This document shows, piece after piece, positions 1,649 to 26,000 of a stretch of 64,000 nucleotides of DNA. The notes beneath the pieces are model-generated. The model saw only the letters and a list, made by a program, of their open reading frames with translations, had not been told where the DNA came from and made no database searches. Position 1 is the first letter of the stretch; the number at the start of each line of letters is the position of its first letter. The position numbers were made by a program, and so were the translations under genes. The DNA comes from Naegleria gruberi (lineage: Eukaryota): assembly GCA_000004985.1 (NCBI GenBank), contig GG738875.1; one strand, 5' to 3'.

Positions 1649-1876
1649 ACCACAACACTTTAATGTATTATAAAATTAATTGTTTGTAAAGTTATTAAAG
1701 AGATTCAATATTGAATGATTAATAATCGTCTAATAATGATGAGTTTGCGTTATTATTTTATTTTACACCCGGTTCACTTATAATCGGGTGAGTTAAAATA
1801 TTGTTGCTTAGCAATAGATATGGATAGTAATAGAGTTAGGAAACGTGATTAAACGGTATGTTACATTCTAATGAAT

Positions 1877-2693
1877 TTATTGCTCGTCATCCTCAGCATC
1901 TTCAACTTTAGTTCCATCATTCTTTTCTTCTTGCATATCAGATGTCCACAAAGTCAAGTTGTCTCTCAACAATTGAAGAATGAGTGTAGAATCCTTGTAG
2001 GATTCTTCAGTAAGACTGTCCAATTCAGCGATAGCATCATCGAAAGCCTTCTTGGCCAATTGGCAAGCGCTTTGAGGTGAGTTCAAAATTTCATAGTAGA
2101 AAACAGAGAAGTTAAGGGCCAAACCCAATCTGATTGGATGGGTAGTTGGGAGTTCCTTGGCAACCTTGGTGGCAGTGTTGTAAGAATCCAAGGAGTTGTT
2201 AGCAGCTTCCTTTCTAGAATCACCTGTAGTGAATTCAGCAAGATATCTGTGGTAGTCACCCTTCATCTTGTAGTGGAAGACTTTAGATTCATCAGATTGG
2301 CTTGATGGAATCAAGTGTTGGTCCAAGATTTCCAAAATATCATTACAGATGTCAGTTAATTCACGTTCAACCTTTGTTCTGTATTTCTTGATCTTTTCAA
2401 CGTGATGTAAATTTCCCTTGCTTTCTTCCTTTTGTTCAATAGAGTTGATAATTCTCCATGAAGCACGTCTGGAACCAATAACGTTTTTGTATGCGACAGA
2501 CAAGAGATTTCTTTCCTCAACAGTCAATTCAACATCCAATTGGGCGACTCTCTTCATGCTTTGGACCATTTCTATTATTTACCATCATATTAAAATTTTT
2601 TGTTGTTGTATAATACTCACCATCATATCTTTCAGCTTGTTCAGCAAGCTTGGCCATGAAAACATTATCTTCTCTGGTTTCAGTTTCGCTCAT
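1877..2693 (-). CDS. 14-3-3 protein; join(2621..2693,1877..2571) with a 49-nt intron at 2572..2620
   Basis: Exon 1 encodes [24 protein letters not shown] and ends at a GTGAGT donor. An AATAG acceptor joins it to ...[42 protein letters not shown]..., the canonical 14-3-3 sequence including [14 protein letters not shown]. Codon use is the highly-expressed type (gct/ttc/aag/ggt). Confidence 0.9.
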
Positions 2694-5307: not shown

Positions 5308-8156
5308 CTAATCAATTTCAATGATTTCATTTGGATCTCTCTTACGTTTCTTCTTTTCAGCATTGGCAATAGCAACTTGATGAATACTATGGATTTCATG
5401 TTTGGCTGGGTTCTCTCCCATCAAAATATCAACCAAATTACGATAATCAACTACAACACAGTTTTCACATTTAGCACCAATCTTTTTGTGTTTGGAAAAT
5501 GTATTCTTATTAATAAGCACTAAGTTGGCATAGAAATTATCAATTTTTCCACCTCCACTCCTTATTAAACATTCAACTCTGCTCTTAGTGTGCTTCCTCA
5601 ATAGAACTTGTCCAGTCATGTGAGAGAAAACAAATGTTTTCAACGCCTTATGATTCTGATTTACCTTTAGTAGAGTTTGAACTTTAGAGTCGAATTCATG
5701 TGCACACTTATTGAAAAGATAAGGTTCTTCGTCAATCCAACATTGAGATTCAATACTCTTTTGAATATACTCTGGTTTAACAATGGCACAATTACCAGCT
5801 ACTGCACATAGAAAATTGTAATCTTCCGTGTTGAGATGATTTGCCACAAAGTGAGTTGTAACATTTGGAACAAACTCCTTATTGATTTGATAATGTGTTA
5901 ATATTCCAATATCTTTGGTCAATTCATTTTCCAATTCTGGATTTTGGAAAAGGATATTTCTTTGTGAGATTTCATTGGACCAATTATCTGCACTCTTTAA
6001 AATCATATTTTGTACATCAGTTTTGTCTTCAACTCCTGATAACCATTGATTAATAACTTGTAAACTTTCTTCATCCAAACTTGTTTCGAACATTTTCAAA
6101 CATTTCATTACTAAATGTTCTGCATCTAATTTGTGAGCAATGTCCAACATTGGAATCACCAAATCATTCTCTACAACAGGCTCAATTCCATAGAACATCA
6201 TTAAAATATTTTTCAATGCTCTTGTTTTGATTTGAGATTCAGGATCAATAAGCAATTGCTTCTCCTCATCACTCATTTCTGCAAAATTAATTAATGCACC
6301 ATCAGCTACATCTTCATCATTGAAGAGATTAATTTCATCAGAAGCAAAATGACCAGTGTAAAAAGCTTCAAAAAATGTACTTTGTGCAATTAAGACACTT
6401 CTATGACATTTGATCTTTTCAGTGCCAAACTGATCTATAATGATGGTAGTATCTGATGAATCAGAATTAAATAGACTTTCTAGACATGAATGAGTGGTTG
6501 GTAAAGTAGCAAAGTTCCCATTTTTCATAAATGTCGATAAATCCTTCCCTAATATCTTTGGATCTATTCCTTCCTGTTTCAACATCTTTATGAATTTGTC
6601 AGCAATTGGCTCAAAACCTATACATTTTGAAATGTGAACTAAACTCAAATACATTAGTGGGGCTGTAAAATCATTAAAATCTACACACATCCTTTCAAGA
6701 TAGTATAATAGCTCTGCAATCATTGAGGTTGAATATTTCTTCATAAATGAGCAATTTTCTGAGAAACAATAATCAACCAAATCTTGAAGAATATTTGGTG
6801 AATTTTCAGAATTAACTAAGTTATCTTGTTTGAGGAATGTATAAAATGAAGGATTTCTAATTTGGATAAATGCAAGGAATGTGTAAATGTTATTCGAATT
6901 ACCAATTTGAATTGTATCAGAGGATAATTTGAATTGTTTGGCCTTTTCTGAAACAAGTTGATAAATTGATTTTTCAACTTGGTGTGGTGAGTAATCTGAT
7001 TTGTAAAATATTAATTCATCGTCATTGAAATTAACTCTAGCATTTGAATCAGTTCCAAAATTAACAATTAAAACTGGTTCGTTCACACTGGTATTTTCTA
7101 CCATGACTGTATTCATACCATCTGTGGTTTGAATGTGCATATTATTGGTGGTTTTTTCATTGCAAAATAAGAGTACATCCTCTGAATCATTGTTTTGGTA
7201 TTCAATTTGAGTACTATATCTGTTGCCTCTGTGATTGTTTTAGTGAACTTGGTGGTGAAAACAATTTTTTTAGGTAAGCAATAAACAGCCTCAATACTAG
7301 GCAAATAATATATATAGAATATTATCAATATTAATAACATACCTATCAAACTGTTGTAGAGTTGGAATAACTTTAGTGTTTCGCAATGGTGTTTCCCCTA
7401 AAAATTGGCCATAAGCAACATATGATCCATCACTCAATTTAAATAAAGAGTATGATCTGCCACAATAAACATCAACTATGTTTTCCTTAAGCTCAGTAAT
7501 TCTCTGAGGTGTAGAAAGATAGACCGAATCGTTTTCAAACGTCTGTTGTCCATAATAATTACTACCACAAGTGTAAATCTTTTTAGTATTGGTAAAGAAT
7601 AAAGTGAAGGCATCTCCACATGCAATCTTTACAACCTTGTCCTTATACTTTTTGCTATTTATATTGATTCTATCAAAGAAATTCAATGGAACAAAATCAT
7701 GCACTGTATCCAAATGTCCCAATCCCAATTGACCATAATCATTTTTCTAATAAAGTAAATTAAATTAAATTATATTAATACTATATTAATACTAACACCC
7801 ATTCCATAAACTTTTGATTTTCCCAAGAGAAATAAATGTGTATTTGTACCAACAATGTCCAACACTGAATCATTAATTGTATCAACCAATTTCAATATTG
7901 AATAAGATTCACTATATTTGCATTTGTACAATTTTCCCTCACTATCAATCACAAATAAATTGCTTTGAGAGACAATAGCCTTCTTGATCACAATATCATT
8001 CGGAATGGAAATTTGATAGGTTTGTGTGGTGGGTACTGCGTAGCCCTTCAAGGATGGAGCATAAACTGAGAGGACAATAATCTTATCATCAACATCAATA
8101 TTAATTTGTTTGGGCTCCACAGTGTAAGTTTTTTTGGTGGTGGCAAAATGAAACAT
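5308..8156 (-). CDS. RCC1-repeat and BTB/POZ domain protein (RCBTB-like), at least 3 exons: join(7797..8156,7343..7746,5308..~7219)
   Basis: Exons 1-2 contain RCC1-type blades (LLGKSKVYGMG | KNDYGQLGLGHLD...YTCGSNYYGQQ...). The large 3' exon carries a BTB domain (DQFGTEKIKCHRSVLIAQSTFFEAFYTGHF). Introns of 50 nt (donor GTTAGT) and 46 nt (donor GTATGT) are clear. The third intron acceptor is ambiguous (AG at 7220 or 7214, both in frame). Confidence 0.65.
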
Positions 8157-11401: not shown

Positions 11402-14400
11402 TTAATTTCTATTTGTAAATAATAAAACAACAGATAATGCAATAAGAATTAAAGTGACAATTGACTTGGCATCAAAAGATTTCAAACCAGCATCTGGAGT
11501 AGCACAATCAATCTTTTGAGTGTAACCAGTGAAACATTGACAAACACCTTCACTTGAACATAATCCATTACCATTACAATCATTTGGACATTTTCTACGT
11601 TCACAACTGACACCAGAGTAAGAATCATCACAAGTACAAATACCAATTGAAGTATCACAAGTACCATGACCATTACATTTTGGATCAACACAATTGTACA
11701 AATCACAATCAAATCCAGTGAATGAATCTTCACATGTACAGAAACCTGTAACTGGATCACAAGTACCCTTATAGTTACAATCTCCAGGACATGGTTTAGT
11801 ACCTGTAATGATTAATGAATGTTCTGTACCTAAAGCAACATCAATGGCAAGTTCTCCATTTGGAATTGGAACCTTAGTTGGAGTATAAACATTATTTTGA
11901 TGACCTAAACCCAATTGACCCTTATCATTCAAACCAAACATGTAAACTGCACCACTAGCTGTTAAGAAACCAGCATAATAACCATCAGGTTGAGAAATAA
12001 CAATCTTGACAGCAGTAATTGGAATACTTGGATTCAAAACTGGTGTAGTAATTCTAGAACCATTGAGATTTGGATCTAAACCCAATTGACCATAAGTATT
12101 ATCACCAACAACATAAACACCAACACTTGTTACAATAAATGTAGAGTCAGCACTTGTAATAATGTTAGTAATTGTTGTAATGTTTGTAAATGTACCAACA
12201 GAATTACTGTTAGAATTACTATTCACATTACCAATTTCACGGAAACTTGAACTAGCAGTCAAAGCACCGAAACCTAATTGACCATAAGTACTATCACCAG
12301 TACCATAAACTCTATTGAAATAAGTTCTTGTAGTACCAGAACCACCCTTTGATTCATATGAAACATAAGTTGAATGGAATGGACCAGCAGCAGCCATAAC
12401 GACAGTATTGGTTGACAAACGAATTGGAGCTTCCTTTTCAACGTTAGCAATTTGACCTCTACTGTTACCACCCATAACGAAAAGTGACATGGTAGTTGCT
12501 GTAGTTCTTCTAGCTTTCATAATTGTGTGAATGGCACCACATGAAACTGATTCAATGACAATGGTACCGTTTTCATATTGAATAGTACGTGGAATGAGTG
12601 TAACGTTTGAAGTTGATGTTCCAGTACCAAGACCCATTTGACCATTTGAGTTACTACCCATGGCAAGAACGAGAGTTGAAACATTGGTCATGAAAAAGAC
12701 AGTTGTTTGTACTTTTGATGAATAAGTACCATAACCAATTGAAATACCAGTAACATTGTAAGAATTCAATTCAGGAATAGCACGTGGAACTTGTTGATCA
12801 ATATAAATGTTTGGATTTAAGAAATTGTATGGAGATCTATTACTACCCCATGCCCAAGTCTTACCAGTCAAATATTCAGTAGCAAATGAAACACCATTAC
12901 TAGCATAAACATGATCAAATTGAACATTTGATGCAATGGTACTCAAAACAGTTGGAGAAGTATAGTAAACTTGATCACCAGTTGTGGAAATCTTACCCAT
13001 ACTATAAACACCATTATCAGTAGTTAATACGAAAGTATTCTTTGAGGAAACTGCTAAAATGTATGAGGCAGTTTTTCCACTTGGAACAGTTGTTGAACTC
13101 TTAACAGCTCCAGTAACTGAAGAAGACCATGGATTTAAACCCAATTGACCTTCAGAATTGTCACCACAAACATAAACATCACCAGAAGATGTCAATAAAA
13201 CAGAATGTTGATAAGCAGTGGTAATTTGAGTAATAGTTGTAGATAAAGAAGGTGAGAATAAAGCAGATGAAACTTGAACTGGATAATATGAGCTAGTAGT
13301 TGAAGTACAGAATGAAGCCATATCATTCTTACCCCAGAAATATACCTTGTTTTGATTAGTTGAAGCCAAAGCACCCAATTTGTAAACTGAAATATCTAAA
13401 ACAGTTTCACCATTCAATTGAACTTGAACTGGAGTAGCTTGTTGAGTGATAGAAGTACCATTAATACCCAAAACACCTTCATCATTTGAACCACCAGCAA
13501 AGAGTTTACCATCAGTTGTCAAAACAAACATGGAACGAGAATAACCAACAACTTTTTGAACTGTAGTATAATAGGAAGTACCTAAAAGTGTTGGAGCTTG
13601 AACAATATAATCAGTAATACCCATCTTTTGGAATGCATTATCACCCCATCCATATAATAAATTAGTACTAATTTGAATACCAAATGAAGAATATCCAAAT
13701 GCAAATACTTTGGCTAATTTGAGAGTTGGCACACTATCCATAATTGTGAGATTAGTTGGAGCAACCAAATAATCAAAACCTTTACCAAGTTGTTGATAAT
13801 TGTCTATTTAAATTCATGGATACATAAATAATAATTTTAACACAATAAATGTCAAGTTTTCAAATGCAATCAAATATTTGAAAATGATATGTTAACAAAT
13901 GATCATATAAAATAGATTACATACTATTACCAAAACCATAAAGATCCGAATTTCCATTATTCAAAAGATAGATAACATGTTCAGTACCACAGGCCAATGA
14001 TTTAATACCAACACTGTAGGAAGCAATCAATTGTGGAACTGTGAAACTAGAAGTAGTATTCAAACCTAAATTATTATTATTAGTATTATCATTCAAAAAT
14101 AATCATTATATTCATCACAATTATAATCACACAATTTTAAATAATCACAAATAATAATAATAATATACGTATGTGAGTGAGTGAATGTGATATTACACAA
14201 TTTGTTGCAAATTTTCATCAATTATTATTACATTCTAATAACAACAAACATACCTAATAAATAATTAACAGTTGATGAGAGTGTGTTTGTACTTGAACCC
14301 ATTCCATATAATTTACTTTCTCCTGTAGTTTCGGATACAACAAAGAAAACTCTAACATTTGAACCAGAATCATCTTGTTGAGCGCAAACAAAAGAAACAT

Positions 14401-14626
14401 TCTTTCCTTTGAAAGTATCAATAGCTTGTGGAATGTAGTAATTTTCTTGTCCTAATTGACCAGCAGCATTTGAACCAAATCCATAAACTTTACGTCCTGA
14501 AACTGTTGATGGAAGAGATGATAATCTTTTAGCACGCGGTTTAGTAAATGGATTGTAGGATTTACAATAGATGGAATTTGCAATAAGTATACTGCAAAGT
14601 AGTACAATTAATAGTTTAAATGACAA
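11402..14626 (-). CDS. Secreted/type-I membrane protein with an RCC1-like beta-propeller, tenascin-type EGF repeats and a C-terminal TM anchor; join(14254..14626,13925..14065,11402..13803)
   Basis: Exon 1 has a signal peptide (MSFKLLIVLLCSILIANSIYC). Repeated G-x-N-x-x-GQLG blades run through all exons (YGFGSNAAGQLGQ, GDNSEGQLGLNP, GSNSNGQMGLGTG, GDSTYGQLGFG, GDNTYGQLGLDP, GLNDKGQLGLGH). Cys-rich EGF repeats follow (CPGDCNYKGTCDPVTGFCTCEDSFTGFDC...), then the hydrophobic IVTLILIALSVVLLF. Donors GTATGT in both introns, which are 188 and 121 nt; phases are consistent. Confidence 0.65.
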
Positions 14627-15039
14627 GTTTCTAATGGTTTCGAATAAGTTTATAATGTTTAGTTTTGTGATAACATTAGAATAATACGTTACCTTGATGT
14701 CATTTTTTTCTTCTGTTGAAAATTTGACAAGTGACTTTGTTGATTGGTAACGGCTGCCTTCAAAAATGACATGACAGAACGAATAAATAGAAAGGAATGC
14801 GTCAAATGGATCTTGTTCAATTTTACTTGAGTTTTTTGTTCGTTCACAAATTTTCTTCTAATATCAAACTAGTAGTATGATTCGAACGAATCATTTGGCG
14901 CCATTTTTATTCATCAATGTTTACACTGTAAATTCCAAGCCTCGAGGCTTTCTTGTTAAAAATAGCGAACTTTTACAACAAATAAGTCCTCACTGTTAAA
15001 GTCTTGCGTTTTAATTTTCCAATTTTTAAAAGAAAAAAA

Positions 15040-18000
15040 ATGCCACCAAAGAAGAGGAATATTAATTATGATGATGACGACGATGCTGATGAAAACGATA
15101 ATGCAGGAAATGAGAGTTTAATTGTTCGGGAGCGATTAAATTTTGCTAACCGAAGCAGTAATGGATCATCTTCGGGTGGTGGTAGTGTAGGATCATCGAA
15201 TAGTACTAATCAGTGGTGTGCTTTTAATATTGGTGATAAATCGGAGAATGATATTGAACGTGTGATGATTGCCTACTTGGAAAAGTATCACTTGCAAGAT
15301 ATTAGAGATATTTTGTGTCCTCCTCTCACTCTAACAAATGATGATACAATTCACTATAGTGTATTTATTGATGTTTCACATTTCATGTCTGCAAATATTG
15401 AAATTGGATCAATTTTATTATCATACCCAACAGAATTAATTCCTATTTTTGAGAGAGCACTGATTAAAACACAGCAACGTCACATTGAAAAACAAGAAGT
15501 TATGAAGGAACAATTTAAATTGAAAACATTTGTGCATGTTAGACTTCATACGTTACCACAATGTTCCGAAGTAACAAAAACATCAGTGAGATCTGTGAGG
15601 AGTTGTGACGCTAATAGATTAATTTCTGTCAGTGGTACTGTCATTAAAACAGGGCCTATCAAAATGTTGGAGTATAAGAAGATTTATATTTGTAAAAAGT
15701 GTAAAAAGTCATTTGATATTGTTGCAGATAGAGAACAATTTAATAGTATAACGAAACCAACACAATGCCCAATTGAAGATTGTGGAGGAAAATCATTTAT
15801 TTCGAGAGAGGATGAAATTGTTTGTAGAGATTATCAGGAAATCAAAATTCAAGACAAAATTTCACAACTACATGTTGGTTCAATTCCTCGTTCCATTCTT
15901 GTAGTTTTGGAAGATGATTTAGTGGATGTTGTAAAAGCTGGAGATGATGTAATTTTAACAGGAATACCTTTCAGAAGATGGAAAACTTTTAAAAACGATG
16001 CTAGATGTGGTGTTGATATGGCTGTATGGAGTAATCACATTCGTATTGGAAATGAAAAGAAGAGTGCAATGAACGTTACAGAAGAATTGAAATCAGAATT
16101 TAAACACTTTTGGGAAAAGTATAAGGAGAATCCATTGGCAGGAAGAAGCTTAATTTTGAAGAGTATGTGCCCTCAATTATTTGGATTGTACTTTGTCAAG
16201 TTGGCAGTTGCGTTGACTATTATTGGAGGAGTACCAATGAAAAAGAATAATACACGTATTAGAGGAGAGTCACATTTATTGATTGTTGGTGATCCAGGTA
16301 CTGGAAAAAGTCAATTTTTGAAATATGCCTCTAAATTGAGTCCCAGATATGTAATGACAAATGGAATTGGTACAACTAGTGCCGGTCTGACAGTTATGGC
16401 TTCAAAAGAGTCTGGAGGAGATTGGGCCCTTGAAGCAGGTGCTCTTGTTTTGGCTGATGGAGGAGTTTGTTGCATTGATGAATTTGATGCTATCAGAGAA
16501 CATGACAGAGTAACCATTCACGAAGCTATGGAACAACAAACCCTCAGTATTGCAAAAGCTGGTTTAGTTTGTAAATTGAATACGAGAACAACTGTTTTGG
16601 CAGCATGTAATCCAAAGGGAAAGTATGATTTGGAAGCAAGTATTTCTGTAAATTGTGCACTTGCTAGTCCATTGTTGAGTCGTTTTGACATTGTACTTGT
16701 ACTTTTAGATTCCCAAGATGAAGAGTGGGACAATAGAGTTTCATCATTCATTCTCAATGAGCAACAAATGGAAGAGGAAGATTCTCAGTTATGGTCATTT
16801 GATAAGTTGAGAGCTTATATTTCCTATATCAAATCAGAATATCATCCACAAATACCGCCAGAAAGTGGTAGAATCTTAACAGAATACTATAGACTTCAAA
16901 GAAGAGCTGACAGAAGAGTTGCTGCAAGAACAACTATTCGTTTGCTTGAGTCTTTAGTTAGATTAGCCCAAGCTCATGCCAGACTCATGTGTAGAAAAGA
17001 GGTTACTGTCCAAGATGCTGTAATGTCTGTATTAACTGTTGATATTTCTTCCAATACTTCATCTTTACTGAATGTTTCATCTGTACTTCATTCTAATTTC
17101 CCAGACGATCCAGATAGTGATTATAAGGGTTATATTGAAATGGTTCTTTTCAAGTTAGGTATTGGTTTACAAGATCCTAGAACTGTTAATTTTTCAATGC
17201 CTCCTCAAAATCAAAGACAACAAATCACACAAAAGAAACCAACACAACAAGCCACTCAAAGAGAAGAAAGAGTGGATGAACCCTTAATAGACGATGATGA
17301 TGACCAAGTTGATTTTGGTTTTACTGATGATGAACCTCAACCTGAACAAGTTACCAGTCATGCTGTGAGAACTCCAACAAAACCTAATCAAGGATCATCC
17401 AAACGTAAAATTGAGCATCACCAGGAAGAGCCTGAAGAGGATTATCGATCTCCACAAAAAAAGAAGAAAAGTGTCTTCTCAACCCAAGATCTAGAAGAAG
17501 TAGAAAATGATATTCATAGAACACCTTCTCTTCCTTCAAATCGTAACCTAAACAATTTTAAAGAGCATTTGAGATCTAAGGGAAAGGATTTGGAAACATC
17601 AGAGCTCCCTCAACCTCCAAAACCTATTGAGCCACCAAGGTCTATTTTACAAAAACCTCAAGCTCCACCAATTGTTGAAAAAACCTCCTCTTCTGTCCAA
17701 TTTAACAAACCTTCACCACCTCCACAACAACAAAATGTACAGCAACCAAAAGATAATATCCCTAGTATAAATCCACCCCCTTCAAAACCACCTTCCAGAC
17801 AAACTCCTCAAGATATTATTCCTCCAGTAACCAATAATCAACAACAGCCTACAAAACCAGCCCAACAAGCAACTCCACAAACAGGAAGAGGTAGAAGTTT
17901 ATTATCTAATCTTGGTTCACGAACTAATCAAGTAGCTCAACAACCTCCACCCCAACAATTTCAACAACCTCCACGACCAGCTCAACCAGCTACAGATCAA

Positions 18001-18159
18001 CCTCAAAAGGATGATTCATTTGAATTACCAGAATCGTTTACGTTAGGAGATGATACCAGCTTCTTACTAGACGCAACCCCAACCAAACCATCCAATAGCT
18101 CTGGAAATAATTCTAAAAGACTTATTGATGATAATGATGAGCTTGATGGACTAATTTAA
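15040..18159 (+). CDS. mcm9: DNA helicase MCM9, single exon
   Basis: ATG at 15040 (aaaaaaaATGccaccaaag). A Zn-finger-like CKKCKKSF...CPIEDCGG region, Walker A GDPGTGKSQ, an MCM box IDEFDAIREHDRVTIHEAMEQQTLSIAKAGLVCKLNTRTTVLAACNPKGKYD, and SRFDIVLVLLD. There is extended similarity to metazoan MCM9, including RTTIRLLESLVRLAQAHARLM, and a long low-complexity C-terminal tail typical of MCM9. Confidence 0.85.
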   Translation: MPPKKRNINYDDDDDADENDNAGNESLIVRERLNFANRSSNGSSSGGGSVGSSNSTNQWCAFNIGDKSENDIERVMIAYLEKYHLQDIRDILCPPLTLTNDDTIHYSVFIDVSHFMSANIEIGSILLSYPTELIPIFERALIKTQQRHIEKQEVMKEQFKLKTFVHVRLHTLPQCSEVTKTSVRSVRSCDANRLISVSGTVIKTGPIKMLEYKKIYICKKCKKSFDIVADREQFNSITKPTQCPIEDCGGKSFISREDEIVCRDYQEIKIQDKISQLHVGSIPRSILVVLEDDLVDVVKAGDDVILTGIPFRRWKTFKNDARCGVDMAVWSNHIRIGNEKKSAMNVTEELKSEFKHFWEKYKENPLAGRSLILKSMCPQLFGLYFVKLAVALTIIGGVPMKKNNTRIRGESHLLIVGDPGTGKSQFLKYASKLSPRYVMTNGIGTTSAGLTVMASKESGGDWALEAGALVLADGGVCCIDEFDAIREHDRVTIHEAMEQQTLSIAKAGLVCKLNTRTTVLAACNPKGKYDLEASISVNCALASPLLSRFDIVLVLLDSQDEEWDNRVSSFILNEQQMEEEDSQLWSFDKLRAYISYIKSEYHPQIPPESGRILTEYYRLQRRADRRVAARTTIRLLESLVRLAQAHARLMCRKEVTVQDAVMSVLTVDISSNTSSLLNVSSVLHSNFPDDPDSDYKGYIEMVLFKLGIGLQDPRTVNFSMPPQNQRQQITQKKPTQQATQREERVDEPLIDDDDDQVDFGFTDDEPQPEQVTSHAVRTPTKPNQGSSKRKIEHHQEEPEEDYRSPQKKKKSVFSTQDLEEVENDIHRTPSLPSNRNLNNFKEHLRSKGKDLETSELPQPPKPIEPPRSILQKPQAPPIVEKTSSSVQFNKPSPPPQQQNVQQPKDNIPSINPPPSKPPSRQTPQDIIPPVTNNQQQPTKPAQQATPQTGRGRSLLSNLGSRTNQVAQQPPPQQFQQPPRPAQPATDQPQKDDSFELPESFTLGDDTSFLLDATPTKPSNSSGNNSKRLIDDNDELDGLI

Positions 18160-20266: not shown

Positions 20267-21308
20267 TTATTGTTTCTTTTCTTCAGCCTTCTTTTGCATC
20301 TTCTTCATGAGACCAGAAAGGAAACCCTTCATTTGCTTCATCAAGAATGATTCAGGAACCAAAGCCAACAAACTGACAACCAAATCATGTGGCCAGTAAG
20401 CAGAAGTCAAACCATAGCTGACACCGAATGGACAACCAATAATATCAACACATGATCTAGCATAAACAGTAGCTTCTGGCTTCATCAAAGTAGCTCTTCT
20501 AACCATAGTCATGTCAGACTTGACCCACATTGGAGAAAGACCATAAACTTCCATCTTTGGAGCTTCATATTTCAAAGCAAGACTGAAAGCATTAATGAAT
20601 GACTTGGTAGCAGCATAAACAGTCATCAATGGAGTTGGATATTGAGCAGTATATGAAGAAAGATTCAAAATAGTACCTCTTTCATTCATGATTGGCATAA
20701 TAGCTCTGGTAACACTCAAAACTGAATGAAGGTTAACCTTGATAAGCTTATCAAAATCACTTTCTGGTTGTTCAGTGAATGGGAATGGAGAATTGTTAGT
20801 ATTATTAATACCAACATTGTTAACCAAAACATCAACCTTGTTGTTACCAACAACATTCAACAAGGCTTGTTTGATTTCTTCTCTTGAAGCCTTTTCGAAA
20901 TCAACAATAGCAATAGAAACTTGATTCTTATACTTGGTTTCGAGAGTATTCTTCAAGTTTTGTCCCTTTTCTTCGTTTCTGGCAACAACAATAACGTTGG
21001 CTCCACGTCTACTGAATTCATGAGCAAATCCTTCTCCGATACCTATTATTTAATAATAATATAATTAATAATATTTCATCAGAAATTAATTGTCATCATT
21101 AATCGGCCAATTATGATTAATAAAAACACCACTCTCTAATAAACCTACCAGAAGTAGCACCAGTAATCAAAACATTCTTTCCTCTGTAATTAGTTGAATT
21201 CTTATAGATGAAGTGAGCATAGATAAAACCAACAACCTTCTTGAGCAAGACAAGGCCAAGGATGACACCCAATGTGTAAACGACGCAGGAAAATCCACAA
21301 CAAGACAT
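20267..21308 (-). CDS. Short-chain dehydrogenase/reductase with an N-terminal TM anchor (very-long-chain 3-ketoacyl-CoA reductase / 17beta-HSD12-like); join(21149..21308,20267..21042)
   Basis: Exon 1 encodes MSCCGFSCVVYTLGVILGLVLL...KNVLITGATSG, a TM helix followed by the Rossmann motif. A GTAGGT donor and a 106-nt intron join it to IGEGFAHEFSRRGANVIVVARN.... The catalytic YAATK (Y-x-x-x-K) motif is present and the C-terminus ends with a di-lysine. Confidence 0.75.
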
Positions 21309-21521
21309 TTTTTATTTTCGATCCTCGTTGCTTGAATTGTTCATGGAGAATCTCACACTTTTAAATATTTCACACACAAAACACCTCCACAAATTGTGAA
21401 TCATATTGATGGTTCAATATTAAATTGACAGTTGGTGGGGGTAATACTTTTGCAACGAATAGTAAGGATGATGACTGTTCATTTGATGTCCTCTTATTTA
21501 GTGGTTTGTCAATATAATGTA

Positions 21522-22619
21522 CTATACTTTGAAATGAGTCCATGGAATGGAATTGCTCTTATTGATTTCAGAGTCATTTTCTGGCATGAATAATGGATCT
21601 GTATCTCTGTAATAGTAATGAATATTTCCTTGATTATCCATTAGAATGATTGTTTGGGATCTGGTTTTAAAGTAGGTCTTATTTACATAAATGTTGTAAT
21701 GTGAGTCAAGTCGTGATCTGAAATGAAGAGGACCAGCACCGTCTTTCATAAAGTGTTGTGGAATCAGATTCAACAGGGATGGGTCTTTGCTATGATCCAG
21801 TTGTTCAATGTTTGTAAGGTGATTGATAATTTGTTCTTCCTCCTTGAAATGTTCTCTGAATCTATTAGTAATACATTTTTCTAATTTTTGGAGCATTACA
21901 TCTGGATCTGTGATTTCTCTATTTTCTTTCACAGTTTTTTCAAGTAAATTCTTGAGAAGATCAAGTTTGTATTTCTTATAAAGTTCATTCCTACAATCAT
22001 CCAAATATGTATTTGAAACAATGTGAATCTCATTATTGATCTCCTCAATTTTGTAATAGTTTAGGAGATTTTGAGCTTGATCATCTCTATTGGTCATGTA
22101 AAACATTGGATTTACGCCATCCAGATTTCCCATAATAATGTTAAATCCTCGCATGTGTTTTTCTTCTCCAAAATATTGATCGAGAACATTTTTCCTTAAT
22201 TCTTCAATTTCAATTGAGGATTTCAATTTTTTTGGAAATAAACAAATTCCATTCACAATAAATCCTCTAGAAATCAAATGATCTGTATCTGCAGTTGGAC
22301 CAAATACATTTGTCAACACAACCATATTCTTTGTATCTAAATTGAGACTATTTACAATTAAATTTGGAAAATAAATGAAAACAAACCCCATCCATGTTCC
22401 TCCCTCTTTCTTATCAATACATGAGAGAATTCTAAATCCTGTTTGAGAATCTACTCTGATATCAATTTCACCTGTAGATCTAAGTGGATCTTCATCTCTA
22501 AAATTTTCAATCAAAAAAAAATTAATTTTTTAAAAATCCAAAAATAACTCATACCTATTGTCAACCAAAATGAAAGGGAAGTAAGGGTGAAATGATTGAA
22601 TACACCCTACAATACACAT
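21522..22619 (-). CDS. TANGO2 (NRDE-family) protein; join(22555..22619,21522..22497)
   Basis: Exon 1 encodes MCIVGCIQSFHPYFPFILVDN and ends at AG|GTATGA. A 57-nt intron and a TTTTAG acceptor restore N-R-DEDPLRS, the NRDE motif. Downstream are EGGTWMGF, RGFNIIMGNLDG and KTRSQTIILMDNQGNIHYY, matching conserved TANGO2 blocks (EGGTWLG, NGFNL, TRT.TIIL). Confidence 0.75.
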
Positions 22620-22636
22620 TTTTTTTATTTTTAATT

Positions 22637-22993
22637 TTATTCCAATTGTTTCTTCTTGAGTAATGCATCAATTTGTTGATTTGCTTGAGCCAATTCTCCA
22701 TACCATTCATGATGGTGCATATCAGCATATTGCTTATCTCCTCTAAGTGGACTAGAATTGGAGAGTGGGAACAATACGTCACTAGTAATTTTATTAATTT
22801 GATGTTCGGCACTCTTGAAGGTTGATCTATTAAAATCAACACAAGAATTAATTGGTACACATTCAATAGCATACATTCCGATGATGATGAAGATTACAGT
22901 TATATTAATAACAATAAATATATAATGAACATGAATCAAAAAAACATACCCAAACACTGATTTGACTACTCCTCTCGCCAAAGCACACAACAT
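22637..22993 (-). CDS. Hypothetical 77-aa protein; join(22950..22993,22637..22826)
   Basis: ATG at 22993 (tagaaaaATG). Exon 1 encodes MLCALARGVVKSVF and ends at GG|GTATGT. A 123-nt intron and a TTTAATAG acceptor join it to GSTFKSAEHQINKITSDVLFPLSNSSPLRGDKQYADMHHHEWYGELAQANQQIDALLKKKQLE*. The N-terminus looks like an amphipathic presequence. No homologue recognised. The long ORF-track protein (185 aa from a non-ATG start) is mostly intron read-through. Confidence 0.4.
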   Translation of the reverse strand: MLCALARGVVKSVFGYVFLIHVHYIFIVINITVIFIIIGMYAIECVPINSCVDFNRSTFKSAEHQINKITSDVLFPLSNSSPLRGDKQYADMHHHEWYGELAQANQQIDALLKKKQLE

Positions 22994-23094
22994 TTTTCTA
23001 AAATTGATTTCTTCTATTTGTTGTGTAGCGTTAATTTGATGGCACGTGAAGAAAAACAACAAGAAGCAAATTAAAAGGCGCAAAGTGAAAAAAA

Positions 23095-26000
23095 ATGATA
23101 TCGACACCACAAAAACGTTCCTCTCGAAGAAACATCTCTTCGGGGCCAACATCACTTTCTGGTGGATCGTCATCTCACGCAACAAATAGATCAAGCCATC
23201 AAAAGTTACTTCAATTTATTGAACACATTAAATTCGAGACTAACAAGGATAAATTAAATCACTACCTACAACAAATTGATGATATTTTGATCAGCACAAC
23301 AGAAAGGTATGTTAATAGTAAAATTTGCTGGAAATTGGAAATTATTGTGTAGTGATAATGACTTGGTAAACGAATATTTGCCTAAAATTCTTCAGATTCA
23401 ACATCCTGTGCACCCTCAAGATTTTAAACTTTTCCTTTCTCTCTTGATTGAAAAAGTTATGAACAAGGTTCAAAATGTTTCTGTTGAAAATACAAAGAGT
23501 TGTGCTGAAACATTGTCTTTAATTCTGATTTCTACTGATAGTACAAACTTGATGAAGCGTATTATTACAACAAGTATTTCAATTGTTAGGAAATCTATTG
23601 AATTAATTACTCTGGATCCAAACAACAAGCATAATAGTATTTTATTCAGTCACATGTCACTTTTGATTAAGAGAATTTTGAGTTATATTGATAAGGATAA
23701 TGAAGGTATTCAAACTCATGCTGTACATTTTATTGAAAATTTAATTTTAATGTACAGTAGTATTAATAAGTCAAATATGGAAATCAATGAAGAAAACCTT
23801 TCGAACCTCTTATCTTACCTTCAACTTTCTGGTAACACCTACAAGGTTCAATATATAGATCCTTACCCAATTGACTTGAGCTTTGTTTCAAGTTATGCAG
23901 AGAATGGTAAAGTTGGATGTTTCAATGTTGAAAATATGAGAGATGAAGGAGCAAGATATTTGGAAAAATTGATTGAAAAATTTAAAAAGGAGGATTGTCC
24001 ATCATCTGTAATTTCAGTCATCATCCAAGCTTTACTGAATATTGCAAAACAAAGACATGGATTTTGGAACACAATTATTCCTTTCCTTTCTAATCAGGCT
24101 TACTATTATTTGGGAAAAGGTAGAACTAACAACACACAAAAACAAACTTTGAAGACTTTATTGAAAACAGCTATTTTGTTTTTATTGAAAATGCCAGAAA
24201 CTAGACACAAATGGAGACCAACTATTCTTCATGGATTGGGTGAGCTTGATGTAAGCAATACTTCGATCGGAATGATTACTAAATTTGTGGATAAACATAC
24301 TACAGTTTTAAAAAGAAAGGAACCACCTGCAGAGGAAAAAGAAGCCAAGGTTAGGAAGAATGATATCTCTCAAGCTTCTCAAAATCAAACTGGAGCTCAA
24401 CCTACTCAAGATTTGGAGCCTACATCAGTTTTATATATCAGCTATGTTCCAAATGCTATGACTAACGTTGAGCTGGCAAATACAGTTCTTGGAAATCTTT
24501 CTCGAATTGAATCAAAATCTAATAGACCACCTAAGAATCTTGAGAATAGTAATCAATTGGTTGGTGTCGTTATGTCTGCCCTCTCTAGTCACTATAAGAA
24601 AGGTAATACATATTCTTCAGAAGAACAGCAACAATATATGAGTTCCGTACAATTATACTTATCAGAACCTATTCCATCATTCAACTCTAGTCTTGTCACA
24701 GTATCTGTACTCCAACAACAAGCAAATCCTTATCAAGCTAGACAAGTTGCTACAACACCTTACGGAAGAAGTCCATATAGCAGAGCTGCTCCAGTCCAAT
24801 CACAAAAAGCTGACCCAAGACTTACCCAAAAAGATCCAAGAACAGCATATGTTCCTGATAAGAGTAATGCTTTCAGTTCTAATCAATCTAAAGCCTCTGG
24901 AGATGATTCTGATGAGGAAGAGGTTGTCACATACAAACAACAAACAACTGTCAAACAAGAAAAGGTTGCTGAGCCAGTTGAAGAAGATGTTAAGGAGGAT
25001 TTATCAAAACAATTCAAACTTAAATTATCTATTGTTGATGATAACTGCAAACAACAACTCAAAAAATTCAATTGGAACAAGATGTTAATGAATGAAAAGG
25101 GGATGAAAAGAGAAGGAAAAGATCACTATAGAATTAAGCTCATTTGTCTTATGGCTGTAAGAAGTGCCGAAACAGACGAGCAATATCAACAACTCTACAA
25201 TTTCATTAAAGAGGATGTTAAGGGCCGATTCTCACTACTCATGATGTGGTTGTATATGGAGTATAAACACTCCATTGAACAAGAATATAATGTCAAAAAA
25301 GAAGAAAGTTCCGAAAATAGATATACAAGACTTTTCCACAAGTTTTTACTCAGTTTCGATAAGAGTGAAAGTATTCTTGCCAGATTTTTGGTTCAATCTC
25401 CACACATTACGCAATATACATTGGATTATATTTGTAAAGATCTTTGTGAAAGCGATAATTACATAGGACATGGACTAACAGCTCTAAGAGATATAGTTAT
25501 TTACAGACAAAATTTAAGAGAAAGGTGTTTGAATATGTTACTAAATTATGGTATTCACCAAAACTCTAAGATTCGTACACCTGCAATCCAGATTTTGCGT
25601 GATAAAACTCTGTATACTTTATTTGAGAAAGAAATTACCGACTTTGCATATTCAAGTATTATGGACATGAAACCTCTAATTGAGCAATCAACTTCAACTG
25701 ACGAAATGGTAGATGAACAAGAATCAAGCACTGATGCTAATAATGAAATTATTAAGAGGTACAGCTCCCTTTATTTGGCTCTTAGCTCGTCGTATTGTGA
25801 AGCAACATTTGAGAAACTCCTTAATGATGTTTATGCTAACTACAAGAGTTCAGAAAATATGGAGCCAGTTGTAGCAGTCTTGGAGAAAGACATTTTAAGT
25901 ACTGTGAAATCGAGCTTGAACAGAGCAACTGTGATACAGTATTTGAAAAATTTCAAGGAGGCCGAGTGTCTCGATATTAGTATTAAGATTATGCAACAAT

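What the first reader, a model, noticed from the sequence alone, without database searches (positions are those of the whole stretch)
11402..14626. Extracellular RCC1-like beta-propeller fused to EGF repeats and a TM anchor
Signal peptide, then at least 7 blades with the RCC1 signature G-x-N-x-x-GQLG, then four tenascin-type EGF modules, then a C-terminal TM helix. RCC1-like propellers are classically nuclear or cytosolic Ran-GEF/E3 domains. A secreted, membrane-anchored version is an uncommon architecture. It could be a surface receptor or adhesion molecule, consistent with the large families of EGF/TM surface proteins in social amoebae.
Basis: partly seen in the sequence, partly recalled or inferred. 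Interest (0 to 1): 0.5.

Follow-up and report, generated by a model that had tools for sequence, protein, structure and literature searches.

The report
Naegleria surface double RCC1-propeller protein
This is a real, already catalogued but unstudied Naegleria gruberi gene for a secreted, membrane-tethered protein built from two RCC1-type propellers on a short EGF stalk, an unusual outside-the-cell use of a normally intracellular fold, and its N. fowleri counterpart is abundant in culture medium.

Summary
The gene lies on the minus strand at 14703..11402, with 4 exons and 3 GT-AG introns. It encodes 976 aa, 100% identical to NCBI XP_002675919.1 (NAEGRDRAFT_80122), a "predicted protein" of Naegleria gruberi. 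That is a heterolobosean, not a social amoeba.

Architecture:
- a signal peptide;
- fourteen RCC1 blades forming two 7-bladed RCC1-like propellers (Pfam WD40_RLD E=6.6e-96; AF2 model matches UVR8, HERC2 and HERC1 at TM about 0.8);
- three (not four) tenascin/teneurin-type EGF modules with 18 invariant Cys;
- a 15-residue C-terminal hydrophobic segment with a 4-aa tail.

There is no cytoplasmic domain. In most relatives the hydrophobic stretch ends the protein, so a GPI-attachment signal is at least as likely as a true TM helix.

The family is single-copy and rare. It is conserved across Naegleria, Willaertia and Acrasis, and occurs on a few uncultured eukaryotic contigs. Co-varying cysteine pairs in the propeller and conserved N-glycosylation sequons fit an extracytoplasmic location. 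The N. fowleri ortholog (A0A6A5BKQ4) is among the ten most abundant proteins in conditioned medium (PMC12089049).

Most likely it is a ligand-binding surface or shed glycoprotein. It is not a GEF and not a UVR8-type photoreceptor.

The parts
11402..14703 (-). Whole CDS (ATG 14703 to TAA stop 11402-11404): 976 aa; = NCBI XP_002675919.1 / EFC43175.1 / NAEGRDRAFT_80122 / UniProt D2VIX1
   Evidence: Gene model built. It is 100% identical with 100% coverage to P0001.
14693..14703 (-). Exon 1 (11 nt: ATGACATCAAG; M-T-S-R...)
   Evidence: It is needed to reproduce the annotated N-terminus MTSRNLSFK.
14631..14692 (-).
14254..14630 (-). Exon 2: rest of the signal peptide, linker, and blades 1-2 of propeller 1
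   Evidence: The signal h-region and the first GSNAAGQLG blade lie in one exon.
14066..14253 (-). Intron 2, 188 nt, GTATGT..TTAG, GC 0.19; read-through hits a stop after 7 codons
   Evidence: Orthologs are continuous across the junction NYLLG|LNTT.
13925..14065 (-). Exon 3 (141 nt), blade 3 region
13804..13924 (-).
   Evidence: Orthologs are continuous across GFGNN|NYQQLG.
11402..13803 (-). Exon 4 (2402 nt incl. stop): remainder of propeller 1, propeller 2, EGF1-3, anchor
14573..14703 (-). Signal peptide, about aa 1-23 (n-region MTSRNLSFK, h-region LLIVLLCSILIA, c-region NS|I); spans intron 1
   Evidence: It is one of only two hydrophobic segments in the protein. Orthologs have canonical AxG/SxG cleavage motifs just before blade 1. 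The cleavage site is assigned by rule, not by SignalP.
12998..14494 (-). RCC1-like propeller 1 (aa about 50-445; blades 1-7; motif Gly at aa 56, 115, 175, 230, 281, 334, 390); spans introns 2 and 3
   Evidence: Pfam WD40_RLD best stretch 50-355. AF2 pLDDT is mostly above 85. Foldseek matches UVR8, HERC2 and HERC1.
11798..12997 (-). RCC1-like propeller 2 (aa 446-845; blades 8-14; motif Gly at aa 446, 496, 559, 621, 679, 743, 800). It is more divergent from generic RLDs but better conserved within the family
11504..11791 (-). Three contiguous tenascin/teneurin-type EGF modules (aa 848-876, 881-910, 915-943; 6 Cys each, 4-residue linkers)
   Evidence: Pfam EGF_Teneurin and EGF_2, 3 stretches each. 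PDB teneurin EGF hits. 18 Cys are invariant in 12 sequences.
11462..11503 (-). Short polar spacer ATPDAGLKSFDAKS (aa 944-957) with small residues (D947-A948-G949) that could serve as a GPI omega site
   Evidence: Read directly from the sequence. The omega-site reading is inference.
11417..11461 (-). C-terminal hydrophobic segment IVTLILIALSVVLLF (aa 958-972): membrane anchor or GPI-signal tail
   Evidence: Kyte-Doolittle scan. AF2 helix 955-975. It is conserved at the extreme C-terminus in all 12 members.
11402..11416 (-). Four-residue tail TNRN plus TAA stop; no cytoplasmic domain

Best explanation
WHAT IT IS. The gene encodes a secretory-pathway glycoprotein displayed on, and shed from, the amoeba surface.

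HOW IT IS BUILT AND ROUTED
- A cleavable signal peptide sends it into the ER.
- The mature ectodomain is two tandem seven-bladed RCC1-like propellers (about 800 aa).
- They are carried on a rigid stalk of three tenascin/teneurin-type EGF modules.
- The protein is tethered by a 15-residue C-terminal hydrophobic segment with essentially no cytoplasmic tail.
- I judge that segment slightly more likely to be a GPI-attachment signal than a permanent TM helix.

HOW IT MOST LIKELY WORKS
- No part of it faces the cytosol, so it cannot act on Ran or other GTPases and cannot signal on its own.
- The propellers most likely serve as extracellular ligand-binding platforms. Candidate ligands are prey or bacterial surfaces, substrate or matrix, or another surface protein.
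- The EGF stalk holds the propellers away from the membrane.
- Release into the medium occurs by anchor cleavage, proteolysis or vesicles.

SHOWN: gene model, domain composition, 14 blades, 3 EGF modules, two terminal hydrophobic segments, family conservation, and protein-level detection of the ortholog in medium.

INFERRED: signal cleavage, anchor chemistry, surface location in N. gruberi, and the ligand-binding or adhesion role.

The confidence given (0.6) is for the whole statement. Taken separately, I put the architecture above 0.9, the extracytoplasmic location at about 0.85 and the ligand-binding or adhesion role at about 0.4.
For: - Gene model and identity with XP_002675919.1.
- RCC1-like assignment: WD40_RLD E=6.6e-96; RCC1 x9; RCC1_2 x5; HERC2, HERC1, UVR8, RPGR, RCC1; AF2 pLDDT 81, pTM 0.74; propeller region mostly above 85; 55 strands; TM normalised by target length 0.80-0.83, rmsd 3.5-4.2 A to UVR8, HERC2 RLD2 and HERC1 RLD3.
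- EGF modules.
- Topology: each ortholog has only two hydrophobic segments, at the extreme N- and C-termini.
- The signal h-region and blade 1 are in the same exon.
- Oxidising compartment: C342 and C389 are present together in 9 of 12 members and absent together in 3. P0258 and P0266 carry an alternative pair at aa 388 and 397. All 18 EGF Cys are invariant.
- Conserved sequons at N526 (11 of 12) and N550 (10 of 12).
- Architecture is conserved at only about 30% identity across five clades, including Naegleria, Willaertia and Acrasis.
- Experimental: the N. fowleri ortholog A0A6A5BKQ4 (= P0270) is in the top ten most abundant proteins of serum-free conditioned medium in two isolates, with 8-9 peptides (PMC12089049).
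- GPI-like features: the hydrophobic core is only 15-16 residues. It ends the protein in 7 of 12 members and is preceded by small residues.
Against: - No SignalP, NetGPI or TMHMM run was possible. Signal cleavage and anchor type are rule-based.
- N-glycosylation sequons are not enriched over shuffled sequence (12 observed against 15.0 +/- 3.3).
- The conditioned-medium list also contains actin, EF-1alpha and Hsp70. Presence there does not by itself prove secretion.
- The Naegleria-clade proteins end in basic residues after the hydrophobic stretch (TNRN, VKRM, NRRG). That looks like a stop-transfer TM anchor rather than a GPI signal.
- The EGF and anchor part of the model has low confidence, pLDDT 40-50.
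- No ligand, binding site or phenotype is known. The adhesion or recognition role is inferred from architecture only.
- I could not confirm the GPI pathway in Naegleria from the literature searched.
Confidence: 0.6

Rival explanations
1. Anchor variant A. The C-terminal hydrophobic stretch is a permanent single-pass type I transmembrane helix, so the protein is an integral membrane receptor or adhesion molecule.
For: AF2 models residues 955-975 as a helix. In N. gruberi, N. lovaniensis, N. fowleri and P0004, basic residues directly follow the hydrophobic stretch, consistent with the positive-inside rule.
Against: - The hydrophobic core is only 15-16 residues, short for a plasma-membrane TM helix.
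- The tail is 0-6 residues and is absent in 7 of 12 family members, whose hydrophobic stretch is the very C-terminus.
- There is no cytoplasmic domain, so receptor signalling would need a partner.
- The ortholog is abundant in cell-free medium.
Confidence: 0.38
2. Anchor variant B. The C-terminus is a GPI-attachment signal, with an omega site near D947/A948/G949, an 8-residue spacer and a 15-residue hydrophobic tail. The mature protein is lipid-anchored and easily shed.
For: - The tripartite layout is conserved: small residues, a short polar spacer, then a terminal hydrophobic stretch. In 7 of 12 members the hydrophobic stretch ends the protein.
- The hydrophobic core is short.
- The ortholog is abundant in conditioned medium.
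- From my own knowledge, unverified here: PI-PLC-sensitive complement-protective surface proteins have been reported in N. fowleri. A CD59-like protein is listed in PMC6723116.
Against: - Polar and basic residues follow the hydrophobic stretch in the Naegleria clade, which is atypical for GPI signals.
- No GPI predictor was available.
- The GPI transamidase of Naegleria was not verified.
Confidence: 0.5
3. The protein resides in the lumen of an internal compartment (ER, Golgi, lysosome, phagosome or contractile vacuole), or is a soluble secreted factor. It is not a cell-surface molecule.
For: A signal peptide alone does not specify the surface. The conditioned-medium and EV proteomes in PMC12089049 are rich in lysosomal hydrolases.
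Against: There is no KDEL-type ending and no cytoplasmic sorting motif, because there is no tail. The conserved C-terminal membrane tether argues against a purely soluble factor. Tenascin-type EGF stalks are typical of surface or matrix proteins (established knowledge).
Confidence: 0.1
4. It is an intracellular RCC1-family protein, as database names for relatives suggest: 'ultraviolet-B receptor' for the Acrasis ortholog and 'alpha-tubulin suppressor-like RCC1 family protein' for metagenomic members. On this reading it is a GEF or a UVR8-like photoreceptor, and the hydrophobic ends are incidental.
For: Sequence and fold similarity to UVR8, HERC and RCC1. The Naegleria pangenome paper counts RCC1/UVR8-like genes as photoprotective (PMC9928731).
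Against: - No GW[RK]H[TS] motif occurs in any of 12 members, and N. gruberi has only 5 Trp.
- The signal peptide is conserved.
- There are three disulfide-type EGF modules with 18 invariant Cys, plus co-varying Cys pairs in the propeller.
- There is no HECT, BTB, PH or other cytosolic partner domain.
- The ortholog is found in the medium.
Confidence: 0.03
5. Origin hypothesis, which does not exclude the best explanation. The propellers were acquired by horizontal transfer from bacteria, where secreted or surface RCC1-repeat proteins are common, and were then fused to eukaryotic EGF modules.
For: After the family itself, the best whole-protein hits are bacterial surface proteins carrying Big_2, Flg_new, LPXTG or T9SS domains. 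Bacterial RCC1 giants are predicted to be extracellular (bioRxiv 10.1101/2023.11.21.568195).
Against: - Per-domain scores do not separate bacteria from eukaryotes. For RLD1 the best non-family hit is 70 bits to Gram-positive surface proteins, against 67 bits to an insect HERC4. RLD2 reaches at most 52 bits to anything outside the family.
- The high whole-protein scores of bacterial hits come from summing many propellers.
- The gene has spliceosomal introns and host-like GC content.
Confidence: 0.2
6. Gene-model artefact: the signal-peptide exon, or the EGF/anchor part, belongs to a neighbouring gene.
For: The first exon is only 11 nt, and no RNA-seq data were available here.
Against: - The signal h-region and blade 1 share exon 2.
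- Propeller 2, the EGF modules and the anchor share exon 4 as one 788-aa ORF.
- Orthologs from five clades have the same collinear architecture, some as single uninterrupted ORFs.
- Neighbouring genes are unrelated: an MCM-family helicase transcribed divergently and a BTB protein.
Confidence: 0.01

Closest known systems
Eukaryotic intracellular RCC1-like domains (HERC2 RLD2/3, HERC1 RLD3, UVR8, RPGR, RCC1, RCC2)
   Same: The same seven-bladed fold and repeat signature. PDB sequence hits reach E=7e-23. The structural match has TM about 0.8 and rmsd 3.5-4.2 A. Pfam WD40_RLD, RCC1 and RCC1_2 all score above their cut-offs.
   Different: - Those proteins are cytosolic, nuclear or mitochondrial. 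They act on GTPases, chromatin or ubiquitin-ligase substrates, or sense UV-B.
- This protein has a signal peptide, EGF modules, disulfide-type Cys pairs and a C-terminal membrane tether.
- It has no HECT, BTB or PH domain and no UVR8 Trp motif.
- It carries two propellers in tandem.
Bacterial secreted or cell-surface RCC1-repeat proteins (Gram-positive LPXTG/Flg_new proteins, Big_2-containing Oscillospiraceae proteins, T9SS proteins, giant RCC1 arrays)
   Same: Extracytoplasmic RCC1-like propellers, often in tandem and of unknown ligand. They are the top non-family whole-protein hits. The literature predicts them to be extracellular.
   Different: - The anchoring and partner domains are bacterial (LPXTG, T9SS, Big_2, Ig-like), and there are no EGF modules.
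- This gene is eukaryotic, with spliceosomal introns and a eukaryotic signal and anchor.
- Per-domain similarity is no higher than to insect HERC4.
Tenascin/teneurin EGF-like repeat arrays
   Same: The Cys spacing C-x3/4-C-x5-C-x5/6-C-x-C-x8/9-C, in contiguous 30-aa modules with 4-residue linkers. Pfam EGF_Teneurin and EGF_2 score above their cut-offs, and there are PDB teneurin-2/3 EGF hits.
   Different: - There are only three modules, all with an even number of Cys. There is no odd cysteine for covalent dimerisation as in teneurins (own knowledge).
- The whole-array model EGF_TEN scores 53.7 bits, below its cut-off of 65.
- There is no teneurin intracellular domain, NHL or YD shell, and no fibronectin III or fibrinogen domains of tenascin.
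- The predicted orientation is type I or GPI, not type II.
LDL-receptor-type YWTD propeller-EGF modules and other extracellular propeller receptors (analogy only; own knowledge)
   Same: The general design: an extracellular beta-propeller used as a ligand-binding platform, adjacent to EGF modules near the membrane.
   Different: The propeller family is different (six-bladed YWTD). There was no Pfam Ldl_recept_b hit and no sequence relationship. Those receptors have cytoplasmic sorting tails and this protein has none.
BLIP-II of Streptomyces (secreted RCC1-like seven-bladed beta-lactamase inhibitor; own knowledge)
   Same: It is a precedent for a secreted RCC1-type propeller that works purely by binding another protein through one propeller face.
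   Different: It is bacterial, a single propeller and soluble. It was not detected as a sequence hit at E<=0.01 in the PDB search.

Membership tests
RCC1-like domain (RLD) superfamily | Tandem 50-60-aa repeats with the G-x-N-x-x-G-Q-L-G type signature, scoring above the Pfam RCC1, RCC1_2 and WD40_RLD thresholds | tested here: met
   WD40_RLD 322 bits (cut-off 150), RCC1 199 bits (cut-off 21.7), RCC1_2 112.5 bits (cut-off 22). Fourteen motif positions were found, with Gly invariant even against bacterial homologs.
RCC1-like domain (RLD) superfamily | Seven-bladed beta-propeller fold | tested here: met
   The AF2 model has 55 strands over aa 51-843, i.e. 2 x 7 blades, with high pLDDT. The top 40 or so Foldseek matches are all RLD structures, with TM normalised by target length up to 0.83.
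RCC1 proper (Ran guanine-nucleotide exchange factor) | Nucleocytoplasmic location giving access to Ran and chromatin | tested here: not met
   There is a signal peptide, an EGF stalk, disulfide-type Cys covariation and a C-terminal anchor. The ortholog is found in the medium.
RCC1 proper (Ran guanine-nucleotide exchange factor) | Beta-wedge and catalytic-face residues that contact Ran | not tested
UVR8 UV-B photoreceptor (the name given to the Acrasis ortholog) | Triad of GWRHT motifs providing the Trp chromophore (W233, W285, W337) | tested here: not met
   no match to GW[RK]H[TS] in any of 12 family members. N. gruberi has 5 Trp in total.
HERC E3 ligases | C-terminal HECT domain | tested here: not met
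   No HECT hit in Pfam.
Tenascin/teneurin-type EGF module | Six-Cys module with the tenascin spacing; Pfam EGF_Teneurin and EGF_2 above cut-off | tested here: met
   EGF_Teneurin 47.3 bits (cut-off 24.3) and EGF_2 46.5 bits (cut-off 22.1), 3 stretches each. 18 Cys are invariant in 12 sequences.
Teneurin family | Type II orientation with an N-terminal intracellular domain, an 8-EGF array, and NHL, YD-shell and Tox-GHH domains | tested here: not met
   EGF_TEN scores 53.7 bits, below its cut-off of 65. No NHL, YD or teneurin-intracellular hits were found. The hydrophobic anchor is C-terminal.
GPI-anchored surface proteins | N-terminal signal peptide plus a C-terminal signal: small omega-site residues, a 5-10-aa polar spacer and a terminal hydrophobic stretch | tested here: inconclusive
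   The layout is present in all 12 members. Seven of 12 end in the hydrophobic stretch. The Naegleria clade adds 4-6 polar or basic residues. No GPI predictor was available.
GPI-anchored surface proteins | Release by PI-PLC, or a lipid remnant on the mature C-terminus | not testable with these tools
   This requires an experiment.
Single-pass type I membrane receptors | TM helix of about 20 or more hydrophobic residues followed by a cytoplasmic domain | tested here: not met
   The hydrophobic core is 15-16 residues and the tail is 0-6 residues. A tail-less TM anchor is still possible, but there is no receptor-type cytoplasmic domain.
LDLR-type YWTD propeller-EGF module | YWTD (Ldl_recept_b) repeats | tested here: not met
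   No such Pfam hit. The resemblance is architectural only.

The most novel reading that the evidence does not exclude
This family would be the first recognised class of eukaryotic extracellular RCC1-like propeller proteins. On this reading it is an abundant, probably GPI-anchored and readily shed surface glycoprotein of heterolobosean amoebae, with relatives in at least one amoebozoan-like uncultured lineage. Its tandem propellers would recognise prey bacteria, substrate or host matrix. In N. fowleri it would be a major released antigen and one of the long-sought, molecularly unidentified adhesins or lectins.
Probability: 0.25. Interest if true: 0.6.

Novelty: new variant of a known kind. Interest (0 to 1): 0.4.

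Why it matters
RCC1-like propellers in eukaryotes are textbook intracellular modules (Ran-GEF, HERC ligases, RPGR, UVR8). A conserved family that places two of them outside the cell on an EGF stalk shows the fold was also recruited as an extracellular binding platform in eukaryotes, as it was in bacteria.

Three practical points follow:
- Homology-based names such as 'ultraviolet-B receptor' for these genes are misleading. So is counting them as photoprotection genes.
[quoted passage not shown] It is therefore a concrete candidate for a surface or shed antigen, a diagnostic marker or an adhesion factor.
- N. gruberi offers a safe model in which to test this.

Tried and rejected
- A 60-sequence alignment for structure prediction failed. 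I used 29 sequences instead.
- The AFDB50 fold library was unavailable. I could not survey AlphaFold DB for the same architecture.
- The profile search of 1.84 billion representatives was dominated by giant multi-propeller proteins. It still yielded five extra full-length family members.
- A profile of the C-terminal half returned only generic RCC1 proteins and one EGF-only protein. It gave no new RCC1+EGF fusion and, oddly, not the family itself, probably a word-prefilter effect.
- The metagenome scan gave 2 further family loci (L003, L004) among 80. L063 is an EGF array, not a family member.
- N-glycosylation sequon enrichment was negative: 12 observed against 15 expected.
- 'Bacterial origin' inferred from whole-protein ranking is rejected as unsupported after the per-domain scoring.
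- A first phmmer run that included the giant proteins timed out.
- Taxonomic placement of contig L001 through its carnitine acyltransferase was only suggestive. Best named hits are Amoebozoa (Cavostelium 48%, Balamuthia 43%, Arcella 41%) against the heterolobosean Percolomonas at 40%.
- Literature searches found nothing for the N. gruberi gene identifiers, for RCC1+EGF in amoebae, or for the GPI machinery of Naegleria.
- Papers found under 'RCC1-like, extracellular' concerned intracellular Nd6 and a fungal nuclear RCC1, so they were not relevant.
- No paralog and no functionally linked neighbours were found in the window.

Full report
**1. What is in the sequence**

The region has about 32% GC, like the rest of the window. 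On the minus strand it holds a long ORF (11402..13768) plus two shorter in-frame ORFs upstream. Joining them at canonical GT..AG sites gives a four-exon gene:
- exon 1: 14703-14693
- exon 2: 14630-14254
- exon 3: 14065-13925
- exon 4: 13803-11402

The introns are 62, 188 and 121 nt, with GC 0.19-0.24. The 976-aa product is 100% identical over its full length to NCBI 'predicted protein [Naegleria gruberi]' (XP_002675919.1, EFC43175.1, NAEGRDRAFT_80122, UniProt D2VIX1). The window is therefore Naegleria gruberi (Heterolobosea, Discoba) and not a social amoeba.

Its '13926..14064' is in fact exon 3. Ortholog alignments run without gaps across both downstream splice junctions. Reading through either intron hits a stop within a few codons.

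**2. Domain anatomy**

Pfam results:

| Model | E-value | Notes |
|---|---|---|
| WD40_RLD | 6.6e-96 | 3 stretches |
| RCC1 | 1.4e-59 | 9 stretches |
| RCC1_2 | 5e-33 | |
| EGF_Teneurin | 2.1e-12 | 3 stretches |
| EGF_2 | 4.8e-12 | 3 stretches |

- There was no Kelch, YVTN, HECT, BTB or LDL-receptor hit.
- Eight strict and six degenerate G-x-N-x-x-G-Q-L-G motifs give 14 blades. Their first Gly sits at aa 56, 115, 175, 230, 281, 334, 390, 446, 496, 559, 621, 679, 743 and 800. These glycines stay invariant or nearly so even when bacterial homologs are aligned.
- An AlphaFold2 model built on a 29-sequence alignment has mean pLDDT 81 and pTM 0.74. Residues 50-845 are mostly above 85 and contain 55 beta-strands, i.e. 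two seven-bladed propellers.
- Foldseek against the PDB returns only RCC1-like domains at the top: UVR8, HERC2 RLD2, HERC1 RLD3, RCC1, RCC2, RPGR and WBSCR16. The TM-score normalised by target length is 0.80-0.83 and rmsd is 3.5-4.2 A. The PDB sequence search agrees.
- The two propellers are only about 25% identical to each other, so this is not a recent duplication.
- After the propellers come exactly 18 cysteines, arranged as three contiguous tenascin/teneurin-type modules (aa 848-876, 881-910, 915-943). All 18 are invariant in 12 family members.
- The protein ends ATPDAGLKSFDAKS-IVTLILIALSVVLLF-TNRN.

**3. Topology**

A Kyte-Doolittle scan finds only two hydrophobic segments in every complete ortholog, one at each extreme end.

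The N-terminal one has the n/h/c layout of a signal peptide. In orthologs it is followed by AxG/SxG-type cleavage motifs immediately before blade 1. This assignment is rule-based, since no SignalP was available. In the window, the h-region and the first RCC1 blade are encoded by the same exon.

Three independent observations support an extracytoplasmic, oxidising location:
- **Disulfide-type EGF modules.** All 18 EGF cysteines are invariant.
- **Co-varying cysteines inside propeller 1.** C342 and C389 are present together in 9 of 12 sequences and absent together in the other 3. Two of those three (P0258, P0266) carry a different pair at aa 388 and 397.
- **Conserved N-x-S/T sequons.** N526 is a sequon in 11 of 12 members and N550 in 10 of 12. 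The overall sequon number is not enriched (12 against 15 expected), which I report as a negative result.

**4. Experimental evidence from the literature**

The N. fowleri ortholog is P0270 (984 aa; FDP41_005456, XP_044560175.1, UniProt A0A6A5BKQ4, 'EGF-like domain-containing protein'). It is listed in Table 1 of Chacon Camacho et al. 2025 (PMC12089049) among the ten most abundant proteins identified by mass spectrometry in serum-free conditioned medium of both clinical isolates. The supplement records 8-9 peptides.

So the protein is made, is abundant in trophozoites, and reaches the medium. The caveat is that the same list contains actin, EF-1alpha and Hsp70. No paper mentions the N. gruberi gene itself.

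**5. TM helix or GPI signal?**

The hydrophobic core is 15-16 residues and the tail is 0-6 residues. In 7 of 12 family members, and in locus L003, the hydrophobic stretch is the very C-terminus. It is preceded by small residues and a short polar spacer. That is the classical layout of a GPI-attachment signal.

In the Naegleria clade, however, basic residues follow the stretch (TNRN, VKRM, NRRG), which suits a stop-transfer anchor. I could not run a GPI predictor, and I could not document the GPI machinery of Naegleria in the searchable literature. I put GPI at about 0.5 and a tail-less TM helix at about 0.4.

Either way the whole polypeptide is outside the cytosol and there is no cytoplasmic domain. 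A classical signalling receptor is therefore excluded unless it works through a partner.

**6. The family**

Named orthologs with the same architecture:

| Species | Identity to N. gruberi |
|---|---|
| N. lovaniensis | 54-55% |
| N. fowleri | 53-55% |
| Willaertia magna | 45% |
| Acrasis kona | 30-32% |

- An exhaustive profile search of 1.84 billion representatives added five more full-length members from metagenomes and SRA assemblies: P0145, P0230, P0246, P0258 and P0266.
- A metagenome DNA scan added L003, an Acrasis-like gene with introns, and L004.
- The contigs carrying P0258 and P0246 are clearly eukaryotic. They hold DOCK/RasGEF, RhoGEF, an intron-split P4-ATPase, and PPR and MYND proteins.
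- A neighbour gene on L001 has its best named matches in Amoebozoa: Cavostelium 48%, Balamuthia 43%, Arcella 41%. The heterolobosean Percolomonas scores 40%. The family may therefore extend beyond Heterolobosea, but this rests on one marker.
- The members fall into five clades at about 30% mutual identity, all keeping signal, 2 propellers, 3 EGF modules and a hydrophobic end.
- Propeller 2 is better conserved within the family yet more divergent from generic RLDs than propeller 1. This hints that family-specific function sits in the membrane-proximal propeller.
- The gene appears single-copy in N. gruberi, with one hit and no paralog in the window.
- Its neighbours are unrelated housekeeping genes: a divergently transcribed MCM-family helicase, BTB, 14-3-3, VHS-GAT, SDR, TANGO2 and symplekin.
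- No other protein combining RCC1 and EGF domains appeared among the listed best hits.

**7. Origin**

After the family itself, the best whole-protein hits are bacterial surface proteins (Big_2, Flg_new, LPXTG, T9SS), followed by insect HERC4. This ranking reflects summed scores over many propellers. Per-domain, RLD1 scores 70 bits to Gram-positive surface proteins and 67 bits to a HERC4. RLD2 reaches at most 52 bits to anything outside the family. Horizontal acquisition from bacteria is therefore neither supported nor excluded.

**8. How it most likely works**

*Shown:* an abundant secretory-pathway protein with two RCC1-like propellers, a three-EGF stalk and a terminal membrane tether, conserved under purifying selection across deep heterolobosean divergences.

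*Inferred:* the propellers act as extracellular binding platforms, as propellers generally do outside cells. From established knowledge, RLDs bind partners through their faces. BLIP-II is a secreted RLD-type propeller that acts purely by protein binding. YWTD-EGF modules of LDL receptors are an architectural analogue.

The EGF rod spaces the propellers from the membrane, and the protein is shed into the medium. Plausible ligands are bacterial prey surfaces, substratum or matrix, or another amoeba surface protein. N. fowleri adhesins and lectins are still largely unidentified at the molecular level (PMC6723116).

It cannot be a Ran or GTPase exchange factor for topological reasons. It lacks the UVR8 GWRHT tryptophan motifs entirely. 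The 'ultraviolet-B receptor' label on the Acrasis ortholog is therefore not justified for this family, and neither is counting such genes as photoprotective (PMC9928731).

**9. Novelty and verdict**

The domains are known and the gene is already in the databases as an uncharacterised protein. Extracellular RCC1 propellers are well known in bacteria. What appears undescribed is a conserved eukaryotic family placing tandem RLDs outside the cell on an EGF stalk. I found no paper describing it.

I rate it a new variant of a known kind, of moderate interest at 0.4. The interest is raised somewhat by the secretome abundance of the N. fowleri ortholog.

The blade, EGF and intron counts, the start coordinate, the organism and the 'large family / receptor' framing need correction.

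Noticed in passing
window 15040-18159 (+): An MCM-family helicase gene (Pfam MCM, MCM_OB, MCM_lid) with a long Q/P-rich C-terminal extension. It is transcribed divergently from the RCC1-EGF gene. The two ATGs (14703 and about 15040) are only about 340 bp apart, so they probably share a bidirectional promoter region.
   Followed up: partly
P0007 (Acrasis kona KAL0480892.1) and PMC9928731: The Acrasis ortholog is named 'ultraviolet-B receptor'. The Naegleria pangenome paper counts 18 'RCC1 (UVR8)' genes as photoprotection genes. This family has no GWRHT Trp motifs and is predicted to be extracellular, so at least part of that count is likely an annotation artefact.
   Followed up: partly
P0106: An 1130-aa NCBI protein combines RCC1 repeats with NCLDV major-capsid-protein domains (PF16903, PF04451). 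This would be a giant-virus capsid-like protein fused to an RCC1 propeller.
   Followed up: no
L001 11676-16034 (-): On the uncultured-eukaryote contig carrying family member P0258, a 1452-aa protein combines DOCK-C2 with RasGEF_N and RasGEF domains. This is an unusual double-GEF architecture.
   Followed up: no
window about 12190-12230 (aa 706-716): An N. gruberi-specific low-complexity insertion (NVNSNSNSNSV) lies in a loop of blade 12. It is absent from orthologs and has pLDDT below 50 in the model.
   Followed up: no
window about 14590-14600 (aa 36-39): A dibasic R-A-K-R motif lies between the signal peptide and blade 1 of the N. gruberi protein. It could be a furin/kexin-type processing site, but it is not conserved in orthologs.
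   Followed up: no
one search hit list (P0121-P0144 etc.): Dozens of 2,000-7,000-aa proteins with 10-36 RCC1-like stretches dominate the profile search. They are probably the giant extracellular RCC1 arrays of Oscillospiraceae described in bioRxiv 10.1101/2023.11.21.568195. P0168 (5084 aa) instead matches mainly the EGF part, with 45 stretches.
   Followed up: no
window 257-2569, 5308-7140, 20267-26782: The other genes nearby are ordinary eukaryotic housekeeping genes: VHS-GAT, 14-3-3, BTB, a short-chain dehydrogenase, TANGO2 and symplekin. There is no cluster related to the finding.
   Followed up: yes
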